A DNA stretch of 27,981 bases from Candidatus Zixiibacteriota bacterium (GCA_041742355.1 JBGSIV010000233.1:1-27981); one strand, 5' to 3'. Numbered from the stretch's first letter, positions 2-26,129 are shown. Numbers and translations are program-made. Notes: generated by a model from the sequence alone, not told the origin.

Positions 2-865
2 GATGACGGCGAGGACGGCGCTGGCGACATTGGATCGTCCGCCGCTTACGGTGGACATGGCGCCGCTGGCCTCGTTGCGGGTACCGCCGCTGACCACGGA
101 GGAGTCGCCGCTGGCGTTGGGGTTGAAGCCGAAAGCGGTGCCATACGCGCCGGAGTTGCTGGCGGTTTCGCCCACGGCGATTTGCCCGCTCGACCGGATA
201 TCACCGATGGAATCGACGCTGAAGACTGTGTCGGTTCCTGAGGCGCCAAAAATGTAGATGCCCTCCGGGCTGATACTGACGCGCCGGGGGCCGGTGGCAT
301 TCGAGGATGCACCATCTTTGGAATCGACCGGATCATAGAAGTCCATTTGGGCAATTCCTGTGCTCCGCGCCGATATCCTGAGACCGACATCTCCGGAGTT
401 GTCGCGAACCTCAATCGCGTTTCCGGAGGTGTCCAGCACCTCGGGATACACAGCAACGCCGCTGTAGATACTTCCGCCCCGGGAGCCGTCGACAGTGGCG
501 ATGCGGAATGAAAAGGGCACGGCGACCATGGCTGCCCGCGGGGTGAGTTCGGGATCCGCGCCGACGGTGATACCCAGATACCTCCCGGTGTCGCTGAACA
601 CTGTGTCCAGTATCGGATTGACAGATCCGAGAACGATCGAGAAGAAGCCCTCGACAGTTGCGACCGACTGCGTTTCGGTCCAAACGGAAGATCCGCCGAC
701 CGGCGCGTCGTAGAGGGTGAGGGTCACCGAATAATTGCCGTCGGGGACGGCCTCACCGGCCGGGTTGCTCAGCCGGCCCTGGTAGTTGAGCTTGGTAGGT
801 GTAGCGGCCGCAGCCCAGGCCACGAGCAGAAGCACGAGTCCCCCTGTCATGAGCGAAGTACGCAT
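2..865 (-). CDS. Secreted surface protein, partial (runs off the left edge): signal peptide, 'NYQGRL' N-terminal domain, then Gly/Ser/Asn-rich beta-helix (YadA-head/tail-fibre-like) repeats
   Basis: Absent from the ORF track because there is no stop in the window. ATG at 865 with GGAGG RBS; the frame stays open to the edge: MRTSLMTGGLVLLLVAWAAAATPTKLNYQGRLSNPAGEAVPDGNYSVTLTLYDAPVGGSSVWTETQ...SGDSSVVSGGTRNEASGAMSTVSGGRSNVAS. Confidence 0.85.
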   Translation of the reverse strand, partial: MRTSLMTGGLVLLLVAWAAAATPTKLNYQGRLSNPAGEAVPDGNYSVTLTLYDAPVGGSSVWTETQSVATVEGFFSIVLGSVNPILDTVFSDTGRYLGITVGADPELTPRAAMVAVPFSFRIATVDGSRGGSIYSGVAVYPEVLDTSGNAIEVRDNSGDVGLRISARSTGIAQMDFYDPVDSKDGASSNATGPRRVSISPEGIYIFGASGTDTVFSVDSIGDIRSSGQIAVGETASNSGAYGTAFGFNPNASGDSSVVSGGTRNEASGAMSTVSGGRSNVASAVLAVI

Positions 866-2054: not shown

Positions 2055-2088
2055 GCCGGGGCTTCCCCGTGGAAGCCCCGGCTTTCTT
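2055..2088 (+). terminator. Intrinsic terminator or REP-like hairpin after the lipoprotein gene
   Basis: Perfect 12-bp stem GCCGGGGCTTCC-ccgt-GGAAGCCCCGGC followed by TTTCTT. A GTGC tetranucleotide overlaps the stem foot, as in REPs. Confidence 0.6.
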
Positions 2089-2305
2089 GTGCCCCGGCAG
2101 GGGTGTGGACCGGCGGAACAGACGTCGCGGGCGGTACGTTCCACAGGTAACGCAGCGAAAGACTTACCCGGCGGATCGGCAGTTCCAGGAAGAGGAACCC
2201 ACCTTGAGTTGTGGGGCCCAAAGAAGAGTGGGGCACCGGGGAGACACCGTCGAACGGAGGCTCTTCCTGGCAGCAGCCGTGGCAACACGCACCCGATCGG
2301 GCACA
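2088..2305 (+). ncRNA. Candidate multi-branched structured RNA of unknown family
   Basis: Nested stems: 2088-94/2299-2305, 2101-07/2288-94, 2115-19/2138-42, 2146-50/2164-68, 2177-80/2276-79, 2185-94/2261-70 (10 bp perfect), 2198-2202/2211-15, 2216-19/2231-34, 2247-50/2254-57. Confidence 0.45.
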
Positions 2306-2333
2306 TGGAAGCAATGAGAAGGAGTAAACTGGT

Positions 2334-3137
2334 ATGGAGAAGAGGCTGCGCGGGCAGACGGCGATAGTGACCGGAGGCAACACCGGGATCGGCGAAGCGA
2401 TGTGTGAAGCGCTGGGAGCCGAAGGCGCGAATGTCGTGATCAACTACCACAGCCATGAGGAGCAGGCGGAGGAACTCAAGGCGCGGATCGAGAAGGGGGG
2501 TTCCAAGGCGCTGGCGATCAAGGGAGATATATCCAAAGAAGACGCCGTGATCCGGATGGTCGAGCGGGCGGTGGAAACGTTCGGCCGGATTGATATCATG
2601 TGCGCGAACGCGGGGATCCAGGCGGACGGCAAGTCGGTGGAGCTGACACTGGACGAGTGGCAGCGGGTGATCGATGTCAACCTGACCGGGGCGTTCCTCT
2701 GTGCGCGGGAGGCGGCGCGCCAGTTCCTGAAGCAGGGGCTGTCGCCGAAGATCTCGAAAGCGGCGGGCAAGATCATCTTCACGAGTTCGGTGCACGAGGA
2801 GATTCCGTGGGAGTCGGCGCCGAACTACTGCGCCGCAAAGGGGGGCGTGCGGATGCTGATGCGAAGTATGGCGCAGGAGCTGGCGCCGCGGCGAATTCGG
2901 GTGATGGGAATCGGGCCGGGGTCGATCAAGACGAAGATCAACGCGGAGGCCTGGGCGACGAAAGAGAAGGAGCGGGAAGAAGTCGAGCGGTTCATTCCGT
3001 ACGGGCGGTGGGGGGAGCCGGTGGATATCGGGAAAGTGGCGGCATGGCTCGCCTCGGATGAGGCGGATTATATTACGGGGACGACGATATTCGTGGACGG
3101 GGGTATGCTGCTGTATCCGAGTTTCCGGGAAGGGTGA
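2334..3137 (+). CDS. Short-chain dehydrogenase/reductase, glucose 1-dehydrogenase-like
   Basis: TGGNTGIG Rossmann motif, NAG, SSVHE, catalytic YCAAK, C-terminal YITGTTIFVDGGM; AAGGAG RBS. Confidence 0.9.
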   Translation: MEKRLRGQTAIVTGGNTGIGEAMCEALGAEGANVVINYHSHEEQAEELKARIEKGGSKALAIKGDISKEDAVIRMVERAVETFGRIDIMCANAGIQADGKSVELTLDEWQRVIDVNLTGAFLCAREAARQFLKQGLSPKISKAAGKIIFTSSVHEEIPWESAPNYCAAKGGVRMLMRSMAQELAPRRIRVMGIGPGSIKTKINAEAWATKEKEREEVERFIPYGRWGEPVDIGKVAAWLASDEADYITGTTIFVDGGMLLYPSFREG

Positions 3138-9633: not shown

Positions 9634-9672
9634 GCGCGTCGCGTCAGTGCGGCCTGCTGCGGCAAAAACCGT

Positions 9673-9700
9673 TTGACATCGGTCGGTCAGTTGCTATTAT
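9673..9700 (+). promoter_or_regulatory. sigma70 promoter for tRNA-Lys
   Basis: TTGACA-N16-TATTAT with an extended -10 TGn. Confidence 0.7.
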
Positions 9701-9741: not shown

Positions 9742-9813
9742 GGGGGTGTAGCTCAGTGGTAGAGCACCTGCCTTTTAAGCAGGGAGTCGATGGTTCGATC
9801 CCATCCACCCTCA
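9742..9813 (+). tRNA. tRNA-Lys (anticodon UUU), CCA not encoded
   Basis: Acceptor stem GGGGGTG/CACCCTC, D arm GCTC/GAGC, anticodon arm CCTGC-CT TTT AA-GCAGG, T arm GATGG-TTCGATC-CCATC, discriminator A. Confidence 0.96.
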
Positions 9814-21351: not shown

Positions 21352-21527
21352 GCGTCACCTTGAGAGCCATAGCGTCACCCTGAGCGTAGTCGAAGGGTGA
21401 CGCAGCAGATGAGGACATCTGCCGCGCATGGACGCTGGAAGCAGCAGCGTCACCCTGAGCGCCATAGCGTCACCCTGAGCGGAGTCGAAGGGTGACGAAG
21501 CAGATGAGGACATCTGCCGCGCACGGA
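21352..21527. repeat. Tandem duplicated 81-bp composite REP unit (BIME-like), 95-bp period
   Basis: Units 21352-21432 and 21447-21527 differ at 5 positions. Each consists of a half-site GCGTCACC(C/T)TGAG, the palindrome CGTCACCCTGAGCG(T/G)AGTCGAAGGGTGACG, and GCAGATGAGGACATCTGC-CGCGCA(T/C). Confidence 0.88.
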
Positions 21528-21534
21528 TCTGATT

Positions 21535-21566
21535 GACGGTGTGCCGAACGGCACGCCGTTTTTTTT
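21535..21566 (+). terminator. Intrinsic terminator downstream of asnS
   Basis: GACGGTGTGCCG-aa-CGGCACGCCGTT followed by a T run. Confidence 0.8.
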
Positions 21567-21692
21567 GTGTCTGCGGGGAGGGCGCCGCATGCCCCGTTCC
21601 GCAGGGTCTTGCGTGACGCCGAGCGAAGCGAGGGGGAGCGTGTGACCCTGCGGGTGACGCGCCGTGCCGAGAGGCGCGCCGTTCTTTTTCTG

Positions 21693-25321: not shown

Positions 25322-25394
25322 GGTTTTCTCCGGAGTTTGGGAAAGAATATAGGGGAGCGATAGGGACGGGGCAAGGAGTTTGGGGGGAAGATCT

Positions 25395-25585
25395 GTGTAC
25401 GGCAGATGTCCACATCTGCCGTACACGGTGAGGAGTCACAATATGTGATTGACCCGCGGTTGGCTGGCGCGTGTTATTGGATGTATCATTTGCTGAACCG
25501 TCTATTTGTGGCCGGCAGATGTCCACATCCGCCGCGCACGGGAATACAAGCAGTATGTGACCGGCAGATGTCCACATCTGCCGGT
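25395..25585 (+). repeat. Three REP palindromes upstream of RAYT
   Basis: GTGT-ACGGCAGATGTCCACATCTGCCGTACAC (25395-426, perfect 15-bp stem), GTGG-CCGGCAGATGTCCACATCCGCCG (from 25508), GTGA-CCGGCAGATGTCCACATCTGCCGGT (from 25557). Confidence 0.9.
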
Positions 25586-25598
25586 AGAGGAGGTCCCA

Positions 25599-26129
25599 GT
25601 GGCTGTACGACGACGCCTGCACTTGACCGGTCCCGGCACAGCCTTCCTCACAACGGTCATACAGAATTGGGAGCCTGTCCTTTCGGTAGCGCCATTCGGT
25701 CGAGCTGTGCTTGACCAATTCGGCGAGACAGCCCAATTCTATCGCGTTGCCATTGTCGGCTACGTTCTGATGCCATCGCACCTGCATGCAGTCGTCGGCC
25801 TGGAGGACCAGGGAATGACATAGCCATTCATGCAATCGTTCAAGATTCTCAGCTCGAAACGACTCCGCCGGCTCATGCCAGTGGAGTGCTGCCGGAAGTT
25901 CGAAGAGAGCGGCGAATTTCGTTTGTGGAAGCCACGGTTCGATGAACTCACTCTCACATCTGAAGACCAGTTCCGCGTGAAACTCAATTATGTCCACGAG
26001 AACCCGGTCCGGGCGGGTCTGGTCAGTCGGCCCGAGGAGTGGAGCCTTTCGAGCGCTTCGGAATGGTCTACAGGTGTACCTGGGATCTTGCCTGTCAGTC
26101 GTGACTTCTCTTGGATGAAGAGGGATTAA
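25599..26129 (+). pseudogene. rayT: REP-associated tyrosine transposase (RAYT/TnpA-REP, Y1 HUH) with an in-frame amber stop at 25821-25823
   Basis: GAGGAGG RBS + GTG 25599; FLTT, YVLMPSHLH (HUH), FMQSFK, LWKPRF, catalytic-Tyr motif NYVHENPVRAGLV...EW.LSS. Both track ORFs are in the same frame, separated only by the TAG. Confidence 0.9.

What the first reader, a model, noticed from the sequence alone, without database searches (positions are those of the whole stretch)
2088..2305. Unannotated ~218-nt multi-branched structured RNA candidate in front of the SDR gene
Seen: nearly the whole spacer folds into nested helices. These are a closing stem TGTGCCC/GGGCACA plus GGGTGTG/CGCACCC, two 5' hairpins (GGAAC/GTTCC; GGTAA-cgcagcgaaagac-TTACC), and a domain closed by CGGC/GCCG and a perfect 10-bp CCAGGAAGAG/CTCTTCCTGG that encloses three small hairpins. 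The G-U pair favours the + strand. It starts right after a terminator/REP hairpin and ends 28 nt before the SDR start. I could not match it to 6S, SRP, ydaO, c-di-GMP, B12 or TPP signatures. Inference: a novel cis-regulatory RNA, an sRNA, or the RNA of a non-autonomous mobile element.
Basis: partly seen in the sequence, partly recalled or inferred. Interest (0 to 1): 0.7.

Follow-up and report, generated by a model that had tools for sequence, protein, structure and literature searches.

The report
Ordinary spacer with a decayed repeat
This stretch is an ordinary gap between two genes, not a conserved folded RNA: its centre is a worn copy of a short palindrome repeated across this genome, its proposed helices are broken in a close relative, and the rest likely holds the start signals of the dehydrogenase gene behind it.

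Summary
The whole-element folding z-score is -1.9 to -1.6. Of 79 arbitrary 218-nt tiles from the same window, 10 to 12 do as well.

There is no Rfam match. I found no homologue in the own genome, in 284 other genomes of the phylum, or beside 80 metagenomic relatives of the SDR gene.

The only comparative data are low-depth contigs of a close relative in public runs. They show 25 substitutions and one deletion across 2088-2291. All 9 substitutions that can be tested at predicted pairs break the pair, and none is compensated. The terminator just upstream keeps its pairing.

The core (about 2186-2245) is a diverged copy of a repeated palindrome, here called REP-B (CCCACCATrAATGGTGGG plus flanks). 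It has 37 exact cores in this genome and occurs in 14 of 40 relatives. The relative carries a near-canonical copy at the same spot.

No small ORF in the spacer survives in the relative.

A GGAACA-N16-CGTT site (2115-2140) is a candidate ECF-type promoter. It would place half of the proposed RNA upstream of the transcript.

Verdict: an ordinary spacer, of low interest.

The parts
2055..2089 (+). Intrinsic terminator of the upstream gene (1178-2014): a 12-bp GC-rich hairpin with a 4-nt loop, followed by TTTCTTG.
   Evidence: terminator scan: 2 found, 0.2 expected in shuffles. The single change in the related lineage (2074 A>G) turns an A-T pair into G-T, so the pairing is kept.
2115..2140 (+). 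Candidate ECF-sigma-type promoter GGAACA-N16-CGTT (inferred).
   Evidence: It is the only match to GGAAC-N16/17-CGTT on either strand of the window; 0.41 are expected per window and 33 of 100 shuffles have at least one. The format is the same as mapped sigH/sigE promoters of C. glutamicum (PMC10012870, passages read). Both boxes are unchanged in the related lineage, and its 2120 A>C gives GGAACC. Against: the genome-wide count of 86 is at chance level. No TSS data exist.
2177..2194 (+). 5' arm of the long interrupted stem (CGGC, GTT, CCAGGAAGAG). It overlaps the 5' flank (GAGAGGAA-like) of the repeat copy.
   Evidence: One substitution (2192 G>A) in the related lineage breaks the pair with C2263.
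2186..2245 (+). Diverged copy of the genomic palindrome family 'REP-B'. It consists of the flank AGAGGAA, the hairpin CCCAC-CTTGAGTT-GTGGG (2198-2215), and a 3' half GTGGGGC(C/A)C.. that appears twice (2211- and 2228-).
   Evidence: Local alignment to three repeat copies scores 43, 39 and 30; 200 shuffles gave mean 21.5, sd 2.4, maximum 31. The two best hits of a REP-B profile in the whole window are 2190-2203 and 2228-2243, with weak E-values of 1.5 and 7.7. The related lineage has CCCACCATCAATGGTTGGG here, one mismatch from the family core. The family has 37 exact cores in the genome.
2261..2279 (+). 3' arm of the long interrupted stem (CTCTTCCTGG, AGC, GCCG).
   Evidence: No substitution in the related lineage.
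2319..2336 (+). Shine-Dalgarno GAAGGAG and the ATG of the SDR gene (2334-3137). They lie outside the proposed structure.
   Evidence: Pfam adh_short_C2 matches at E 2.5e-62.

Best explanation
The 218 bases are an ordinary intergenic spacer whose predicted helices are not kept in a close relative; its core (2186-2245) is a diverged copy of a palindrome repeated across this genome, and the remainder likely serves as promoter and 5' leader of the SDR gene.

Shown:
- The upstream gene ends in a strong intrinsic terminator (2055-2082).
- The centre of the spacer is derived from the REP-B repeat family.
- The spacer is single-copy and has no detectable homologue.
- It diverges at least as fast as the flanking coding DNA.
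- Substitutions in the related lineage break the proposed pairs.

Inferred:
- Transcription of the SDR gene starts inside the spacer, possibly from the GGAACA-N16-CGTT site at 2115-2140. In that case the 5' strands of the two closing stems at 2088-2107 (whose partners lie at 2288-2305) would not be in the RNA at all.
- The roughly 185-nt leader would then carry a repeat-derived stem-loop (2177-2279), which may incidentally affect mRNA stability.
- The multi-branch appearance comes from a GC-rich sequence of about 65% G+C, an embedded palindrome, and a few chance inverted repeats.
For: Folding energy:
- Whole element z is -1.88 with 8 of 200 shuffles as good, and -1.59 in my run.
- 12 of 79 background tiles reach z <= -1.6 and 10 of 79 reach z <= -1.9.

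Rfam:
- No family reaches its gathering score in the region; the only match in the window is a tRNA at 9742.
- At E <= 10 in 1950-2450 there are 2 weak hits, both outside 2088-2305.

No homologue found:
- Own genome: BLAST finds only the element itself, with the next hit at E 0.0098 over 52 nt. nhmmer's next hit is E 0.21.
- 0 of 40 relatives match at E <= 0.001.
- In the 284 other genomes of the phylum the best per-genome E is 0.0029, on 25-41-nt pieces. 31 genomes have E <= 0.1, close to the 28 expected by chance.
- The one SDR ortholog among 40 relatives (G005, 58% identity) has a 70-nt AT-rich upstream region without the element.
- Beside 80 metagenomic SDR relatives (best 47% identity), nhmmer finds nothing and the best blastn E is 0.21.
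- A covariance model of the 3' domain finds only itself in the own genome (next E 5). In 107 family genomes the best E is 0.04 per genome. Of the three best hits, one lies inside an RRM-protein ORF and one holds a canonical REP-B core; the third (G096) holds a related CCCAC...GTGGG hairpin.

Related lineage in public runs (X5 contig 2041-2199 and X4 contig 2141-2291):
- There are 25 substitutions and a 1-nt deletion in 204 nt.
- 9 of 9 testable substitutions at MFE pairs break the pair, and none is compensatory.
- Three of them hit the GGGTGTG/CGCACCC closing stem, and one hits the 10-bp helix.
- Threading the window's 3'-domain fold onto the variant costs 15.5 kcal/mol (-45.6 to -30.1).
- A second relative (X4, 479-nt contig) shares only 2229 onward and has at least 71 unlike letters before that point.

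Repeat origin of the core.

No coding potential:
- In the relative, TTG2204 becomes ATC and an in-frame TAA arises at 2222-2224.
- GTG2211 becomes GTT, and the deletion at 2092 shifts the two long frames.
- Pfam finds nothing for the 104-aa frame.
Against: - Substitutions fall somewhat less often on predicted paired positions than expected: 10 of 25 against 60% (one-sided P = 0.036).
- The arms of the long stem carry 1 substitution in 37 nt. The enclosed 66 nt carry 13 (Fisher P = 0.016) and the rest of the spacer carries 11 in 101 nt.
- The 3' domain keeps z = -2.87 in both lineages through a re-arranged interior. A selected stem around a fast-changing insert is therefore not excluded.
- The + strand folds clearly better than the - strand.
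- The comparative data are two contigs of 151-158 nt at depth 2-2.3 from two runs of one study. I assume they are one lineage because they share 2160 A>G and 2166 A>C. Single differences at this depth can be sequencing errors.
- No sigma-70-like promoter was found in the spacer. The ECF-type site is not enriched genome-wide, so the promoter part of the explanation is unproven.
Confidence: 0.75

Rival explanations
1. A lineage-specific structured 5' leader. The 103-nt domain 2177-2279, a 17-bp interrupted stem closing a variable interior, would be a selected RNA element that controls stability, processing or translation of the SDR mRNA.
For: The 3' domain has z = -2.87 in both the window and the related lineage. 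The arms carry 1 substitution in 37 nt against 13 in 66 nt for the interior (P = 0.016). The + strand folds better than the - strand. The last 105 nt before the SDR start show only 1 difference in a second relative (2259 G>T).
Against: The domain boundaries were chosen after the fact, and 6 of 270 fixed tiles do as well. The one substitution in the arms breaks a pair. The interior is a copy of a genomic repeat, which would explain both the hairpin and its fast turnover. No structural homologue turned up in 107 family genomes. The arms are not significantly more conserved than the rest of the spacer (1 of 37 against 11 of 101). The SDR ortholog in G005 has no such leader.
Confidence: 0.1
2. A small non-autonomous mobile element (MITE-like). 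It would be bounded by the 10-bp inverted repeat CCAGGAAGAG/CTCTTCCTGG and inserted in front of the SDR gene.
For: A perfect 10-bp inverted repeat flanks 66 nt that contain a repeat-family hairpin. A second relative differs completely upstream of 2229. The genome is rich in repeat elements.
Against: The 86-nt unit is single-copy in the genome by BLAST, nhmmer and the covariance model. Only the 18-nt hairpin and its short flanks recur. Other REP-B copies lack these inverted repeats. About 2.6 such inverted repeats per window are expected by chance. I saw no target-site duplication in the flanks when reading.
Confidence: 0.06
3. The spacer encodes a small protein or leader peptide. One candidate is the 37-codon frame from TTG2204, which follows a GAGGA box and ends at TGA 2315-2317 inside the SDR ribosome-binding site.
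For: The frame 2069-2317 is open. GAGGAACCCAyC followed by a start codon is a real translation-start context in a relative (the response-regulator gene in L032).
Against: In the related lineage TTG becomes ATC and an in-frame TAA appears at 2222-2224. GTG2211 becomes GTT, and a 1-nt deletion at 2092 shifts the longer frames. Similarity to the repeat copies runs through indels that are not multiples of three. Pfam finds nothing.
Confidence: 0.02

Closest known systems
REP / BIME elements (repetitive extragenic palindromes and their mosaics, best known from Enterobacteria and Pseudomonas; recalled, no paper read here)
   Same: The core is a short imperfect palindrome with conserved flanks. It is present in tens of copies per genome, lies between genes, often occurs in clusters with other palindrome families, and varies between close relatives at the same locus.
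   Different: The copy in the window is decayed, with 3 mismatches to the 18-nt core pattern. It is solitary rather than part of a mosaic. No link of this REP-B family to a RAYT transposase was tested. Earlier AI notes link a RAYT to a REP of this genome, without giving the repeat's letters.
ECF sigma (sigH/sigE-type) promoters, GGAAC-N17-18-cGTT, as mapped in Corynebacterium glutamicum (PMC10012870; abstract and passages read)
   Same: GGAACA-N16-CGTT at 2115-2140 has the same letters and spacing as the mapped promoters of cg0378, clgR P2, cg2380 and dnaK. The genome has 28 Sigma70_r4_2 matches.
   Different: This is a different phylum. There is no TSS, no cognate sigma factor and no genome-wide enrichment (86 sites, at chance level). 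The distance to the start codon (about 190 nt) is longer than for most of the listed promoters.
Orphan riboswitch candidates and structured 5' leaders (Rfam 'Cis-reg' class)
   Same: The position is the same: between a terminator and a gene, on the sense strand, with several predicted helices.
   Different: There is no conservation, no covariation, no outlying folding energy and no Rfam match.

Membership tests
Any Rfam 15 family | A covariance-model score at or above the family's gathering threshold | tested here: not met
   the only match in the window is a tRNA at 9742-9813; at E <= 10 there are only mir-1954 (15.2 bits against 99) on the terminator hairpin and P26 (11.9 against 36), both outside 2088-2305.
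Conserved structured non-coding RNA (generic: riboswitch, leader or sRNA) | Homologues in related genomes or at orthologous loci | tested here: not met
   Searches found none in 40 relatives, 284 genomes of the phylum, 80 metagenome loci and 107 family genomes (covariance model). The G005 ortholog lacks the element. Only near-identical strains in public runs hold it.
Conserved structured non-coding RNA (generic) | Base pairs maintained by compensatory changes | tested here: not met
0 compensatory changes, and 9 of 9 testable substitutions at MFE pairs break them. This rests on one related lineage at low depth.
Conserved structured non-coding RNA (generic) | Folding energy beyond the genomic background | tested here: inconclusive
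   The whole element is not an outlier. The 3' domain has z -2.87, in the top 2% or so of fixed tiles, but its boundaries were chosen after the fact.
Conserved structured non-coding RNA (generic) | Transcribed as a defined RNA | not testable with these tools
   no RNA run is listed among the holders.
REP-type repeated extragenic palindrome (applies to the core 2186-2245 only) | Many copies of a short palindrome with conserved flanks in one genome | tested here: met
   37 exact cores CCCACCAT[AGT]AATGGTGGG with the consensus flanks GAGAG.AA and CCACAGGAGA. The reversed-pattern control gives 0. 14 of 40 relatives have 1-9 copies.
REP-type repeated extragenic palindrome (applies to the core 2186-2245 only) | The window's copy is significantly similar to the family | tested here: met
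   alignment score 43 against a shuffle maximum of 31. The related lineage has a copy with one mismatch at the same place. The strict profile gives only weak E-values of 1.5 and 7.7.
REP-type repeated extragenic palindrome | A cognate RAYT (TnpA-REP) transposase | not tested
   Earlier AI notes mention a RAYT/REP locus in this genome, without giving the repeat's letters. It was not examined here.
MITE | Multiple copies of the whole unit bounded by terminal inverted repeats | tested here: not met
   the 86-103-nt unit occurs only once in the genome.
ECF-sigma-dependent promoter | -35 GGAAC and -10 CGTT at 16-17 nt spacing, upstream of and oriented towards a gene | tested here: met
   the site at 2115-2140 on the + strand is the only match in the window. 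The format follows PMC10012870.
ECF-sigma-dependent promoter | A mapped transcription start, a cognate sigma factor, or a regulon | tested here: inconclusive
   The genome-wide count of 86 is at chance level. Only 1 of 23 ECF-type sigma genes has a strict site within 1 kb upstream of its domain hit. No RNA data exist.

The most novel reading that the evidence does not exclude
A copy of a genomic palindrome has been domesticated as a leader element. Under this reading the 17-bp interrupted stem 2177-2194/2261-2279 is kept almost unchanged between lineages, while its 66-nt repeat-derived interior changes at 20% of positions. It forms a selected hairpin in an ECF-sigma-driven SDR mRNA and sets that mRNA's stability or processing.
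Probability: 0.08. Interest if true: 0.35.

Novelty: not a real feature. Interest (0 to 1): 0.1.

Why it matters
This result removes a false lead. A GC-rich spacer containing a repeat hairpin can look like an ornate RNA to the eye. Here the one related lineage on hand, together with a background distribution of folding scores, argues that it is not one. The useful by-products are modest: a second conserved palindrome family (REP-B) shared by several genera of this uncultured phylum, and a candidate stress-type promoter for an accessory SDR gene.

Tried and rejected
- **Rfam:** searched at gathering threshold and at E <= 10; nothing in the region.
- **DNA searches for a homologue:** BLAST or nhmmer against the own genome, 40 relatives and 284 other genomes of the phylum gave only chance-level short pieces.
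- **Synteny:** I looked for relatives of the upstream protein (5 of 40 relatives) and of the SDR (1 of 40). None has the element next to it.
- **Metagenome loci of SDR relatives:** 80 loci, best 47% identity; nothing by nhmmer or blastn. The first attempt failed because the machine was busy.
- **Covariance model of the 3' domain**: no credible hit. The G110 hit is inside an RRM-protein ORF, and the G112 hit is another REP-B hairpin.
- **Sequencing runs:** no RNA holder is listed, so expression is untested. X11 laid nothing and X9 covers only 2260-2345.
- **K-mer test for a high-copy mosaic:** 11-mer counts across the spacer are at background level. The spacer is therefore not built of fresh repeat modules; only the diverged core is repeat-derived.
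- **Sigma-70 promoter scan:** 0 sites.
- **Sigma-54 and Bacteroidetes-type promoters:** I looked by eye only, using recalled consensus sequences, and found no site with canonical spacing.
- **ECF-site enrichment and autoregulation test:** negative.
- **C158 look-alike of the 3' domain** (E 0.35): it lies inside a long ORF and is a REP-B core plus chance similarity.
- **Earlier-findings look-ups by place and by sequence:** nothing near the region or resembling it.
- **Literature:** no paper in the searched library holds both 'Zixibacteria' and 'extragenic palindromic'.
- **Not run:** a genome contigs pattern scan and a protein homology search of the 82-aa frame. Searches made them unlikely to add anything.

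Full report
**What is there**

The window has a 278-aa gene of no known family at 1178-2014 and an SDR gene at 2334-3137 (Pfam adh_short_C2, E 2.5e-62). They are separated by a 319-nt spacer. At 2055-2082 there is a 12-bp GC-rich hairpin followed by TTTCTTG, an intrinsic terminator by the consensus scan.

The finding covers 2088-2305. The element ends 28 nt before the SDR start codon, which has a GAAGGAG box 8 nt upstream.

**Is the fold more than chance?**

- ViennaRNA gives -93.1 kcal/mol for the + strand, z -1.88, with 8 of 200 dinucleotide shuffles as good. My own run with 100 shuffles gave z -1.59.
- The - strand gives z +0.10.
- As a background I folded 79 arbitrary 218-nt tiles of the + strand of the same window, most of them coding. 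12 of 79 reach z <= -1.6 and 10 of 79 reach z <= -1.9. The whole element is therefore not an outlier.
- Perfect inverted repeats of at least 10 bp with loops up to 100 nt occur 13 times in the window, against 2.6 +/- 1.8 after block shuffling. Most of the excess are terminator or repeat hairpins with short loops. A 10-bp pair with a 66-nt loop is what the chance level allows.
- Only the 3' domain 2177-2279 stands out somewhat: z -2.87, with 1 of 100 shuffles as good. Its boundaries were picked after the fact, and 6 of 270 fixed 103-nt tiles reach that value.

**Known families**

Rfam 15 at gathering thresholds finds only a tRNA at 9742-9813. With E <= 10 on 1950-2450 it lists two chance-level hits, both outside the element.

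**Homologues**

- The element is single-copy in its own genome of 4.37 Mb in 310 contigs. BLAST finds only the element itself, then a 52-nt piece at E 0.0098. nhmmer's next hit is E 0.21.
- None of 40 relatives has a match at E <= 0.001.
- In the 284 other genomes of the phylum the best per-genome E is 0.0029. 31 genomes have E <= 0.1, close to the 28 expected by chance, and all matches are 18-41-nt pieces.
- The SDR gene has one ortholog among the 40 relatives (G005, 58% identity). Its upstream region is 70 nt, AT-rich, and unrelated.
- Paralogs or relatives of the upstream gene are followed by other sequences.
- Eighty metagenomic loci with SDR relatives (best 47% identity) contain nothing similar.
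- A covariance model of the 3' domain finds only itself in the own genome. In 107 family genomes the best E is 0.04 per genome, which is chance level across that many genomes. Of the three best hits, one is inside an RRM-protein ORF and one is another copy of the repeat described below; the third (G096) holds a related CCCAC...GTGGG hairpin.

**The core is a copy of a genomic repeat**

- The 52-nt own-genome piece led to three loci sharing GAGAGGAACCCACCATGAATGGTGGGCCAC.
- A regular-expression survey showed that the genome is full of 18-nt palindromes of at least three families.
- The family relevant here, which I call REP-B, has the core CCCACCAT[AGT]AATGGTGGG with the consensus flanks GAGAG.AA and CCACAGGAGA. 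There are 37 exact cores in the genome.
- The same core is found in 14 of 40 relatives, 1-9 copies each, with 0 hits to the reversed control pattern in any genome.
- Local alignment of the spacer to three copies scores 43, 39 and 30. Across 200 shuffles the mean was 21.5, the sd 2.4 and the maximum 31.
- A strict profile of the 37 copies places its two best hits of the whole 28-kb window at 2190-2203 (5' flank plus left arm) and 2228-2243 (right arm plus 3' flank). Their E-values are weak, 1.5 and 7.7.
- Read directly, 2211-2227 and 2228-2244 look like two successive copies of the right half.
- So the first of the three small hairpins enclosed by the 10-bp helix (2198-2215), and much of what surrounds it, are a decayed REP-B copy.
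- An 11-mer census shows that the rest of the spacer is not made of fresh high-copy modules.
- According to earlier AI notes on this genome (not checked by me), it is a Zixibacteria assembly with mosaic intergenic repeats, a RAYT/REP locus and REP-targeting IS1111-type elements.

**Comparative test**

No RNA run is listed among the holders, but several DNA runs hold near-identical sequence. All runs laid are contigs.

One related lineage is represented by two contigs: one in X5 (2041-2199, depth 2.3) and one in X4 (2141-2291, depth 2). They share 2160 A>G and 2166 A>C in their overlap. Relative to the window this lineage has 25 substitutions and a 1-nt deletion (at 2092) within 2088-2291. That is about 13%, compared with 3.5-8% in two coding contigs of similar depth from the upstream gene.

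Mapping the substitutions on the structure:
- On the MFE fold, 15 are unpaired, 9 break their pair, 0 keep it, and 1 has a partner that is not covered.
- Three of the breaks are in the GGGTGTG/CGCACCC closing stem, whose 3' strand is unchanged.
- One break is in the 10-bp helix (2192 G>A opposite an unchanged C2263).
- Four breaks are in the three small hairpins.
- By contrast, the one change in the terminator hairpin (2074 A>G) preserves pairing as G-T.
- Threading the window's 3'-domain fold on the variant raises its energy from -45.6 to -30.1 kcal/mol.

At the repeat hairpin the relative reads CCCACCATCAATGGTTGGG, one mismatch from the REP-B core. This confirms the origin of that segment and shows that the window's copy is the more decayed one.

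A second relative, a 479-nt contig in X4 at depth 6, matches only from 2229 onward. It has 71 unlike letters before that point, of which the last 30 are shown. They contain other CCCAC/GTGGG palindromes. The breakpoint between relatives therefore lies in the repeat cluster.

**Points in favour of some constraint**

- Substitutions hit MFE-paired positions 10 times in 25, where 60% of positions are paired (one-sided P = 0.036).
- The arms of the long stem carry 1 change in 37 nt, against 13 in 66 nt for the interior (P = 0.016) and 11 in 101 nt elsewhere.
- The variant's 3' domain also folds with z -2.87, through a shortened stem and a re-arranged interior.
- This keeps a small probability alive for a selected long hairpin.
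- The arms are not significantly more conserved than the rest of the spacer, and the high rate in the interior is what a decaying or turning-over repeat copy would show.
- The data are thin: one lineage, with depth about 2.

**Coding potential**

Several frames are open, as is usual at this G+C content. One of them is a 37-codon frame from TTG2204 behind a GAGGA box. In the relative:
- TTG becomes ATC, and TAA arises in frame at 2222-2224.
- GTG2211 becomes GTT.
- The deletion at 2092 shifts the two long frames.

The similarity to other repeat copies also runs through indels that are not multiples of three. The spacer is not a small-protein gene.

**How the region most likely works (inferred)**

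- The upstream gene terminates at 2055-2089.
- The SDR gene then needs its own promoter. No sigma-70-like site is found, although this organism does use canonical ones: TTGACA-N17-TATTAT lies in front of the tRNA.
- The string GGAACA-N16-CGTT at 2115-2140 is the only match to GGAAC-N16/17-CGTT on either strand of the window. 0.41 matches are expected per window, and 33 of 100 shuffles have at least one.
- It has the exact format of mapped sigH/sigE (ECF) promoters of Corynebacterium glutamicum (PMC10012870; abstract and passages read).
- The genome has 28 Sigma70_r4_2 matches.
- Both boxes are unchanged in the relative, whereas three changes fall at 2120, 2123 and 2129, next to or between the boxes.
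- Against this reading: the genome-wide count (86) is at chance level, and only 1 of 23 ECF-type sigma genes has a strict site upstream.
- If the site is used, transcription would start near 2147-2150. The 5' strands of the two closing stems (2088-2107) would then not be in the RNA. The leader would be about 185 nt long with a repeat-derived stem-loop. I give this promoter about one chance in three.

**Comparison with known kinds**

The core belongs with REP/BIME-type repeated extragenic palindromes (recalled knowledge; no paper read). It meets the copy-number, palindrome and extragenic criteria, but the transposase link was not tested. The whole element fails the tests for a conserved structured RNA on homologues and covariation. 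The folding-energy test is inconclusive and transcription is untestable. It also fails the multi-copy test for a MITE.

**Verdict**

This is an ordinary intergenic spacer. The proposed 218-nt multi-branched RNA is not a real conserved feature, with confidence of about 0.75. The residual novel reading, a domesticated repeat hairpin as a leader element, has a probability of about 0.08.

Noticed in passing
own genome, e.g. G000 C262:4350-4520, C30:24996-27590, C74:2951-8741: A palindrome family 'REP-B' (CCCACCAT[AG]AATGGTGGG with flanks GAGAGrAA / sCACAgGAGA) has 37 exact cores in this genome. It occurs at 1-9 copies in 14 of 40 related genomes of several genera, and a reversed control pattern gives 0. 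An identical 18-mer kept across genera suggests a protein-recognised site.
   Followed up: partly
G000 C158:27362-27379 (minus strand): One exact REP-B core lies inside a 736-aa open frame that begins with a signal-peptide-like N-terminus. It reads through in frame (..EEDPTINGGPQMPGK..). This looks like a repeat copy inserted in a coding region.
   Followed up: no
own genome; e.g. L008 (G000 C289:24920-27944) 1200-1900: The 10-mer TTGGGTTCGT occurs 131 times in the genome, where about 8 are expected. It is spaced at roughly 60-130 nt in non-coding mosaics together with several hairpin families. This is probably the mosaic repeat family of an earlier AI note.
   Followed up: no
window 21372-21580 and 25389-25600: There are clusters of inverted repeats of at least 10 bp and 103-nt tiles with folding z of -3.4 to -4.0. 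They are likely repeat-hairpin clusters.
   Followed up: no
window 360-462: This is the lowest folding z-score of all 270 tiles (-4.07). It lies within a 288-aa open frame on the minus strand (2-865) that has no Pfam match.
   Followed up: no
window 9672-9700: A canonical sigma-70 promoter TTGACA-N17-TATTAT lies about 40 nt upstream of the tRNA gene at 9742-9813. It shows that this organism uses standard -35/-10 boxes.
   Followed up: no
coded run X4, 479-nt contig matching window 2229-2636: A second relative shares the SDR gene and the last 105 nt of the spacer (1 difference there). Immediately upstream it has an unrelated palindrome-rich sequence, so the breakpoint lies inside the repeat cluster.
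   Followed up: partly
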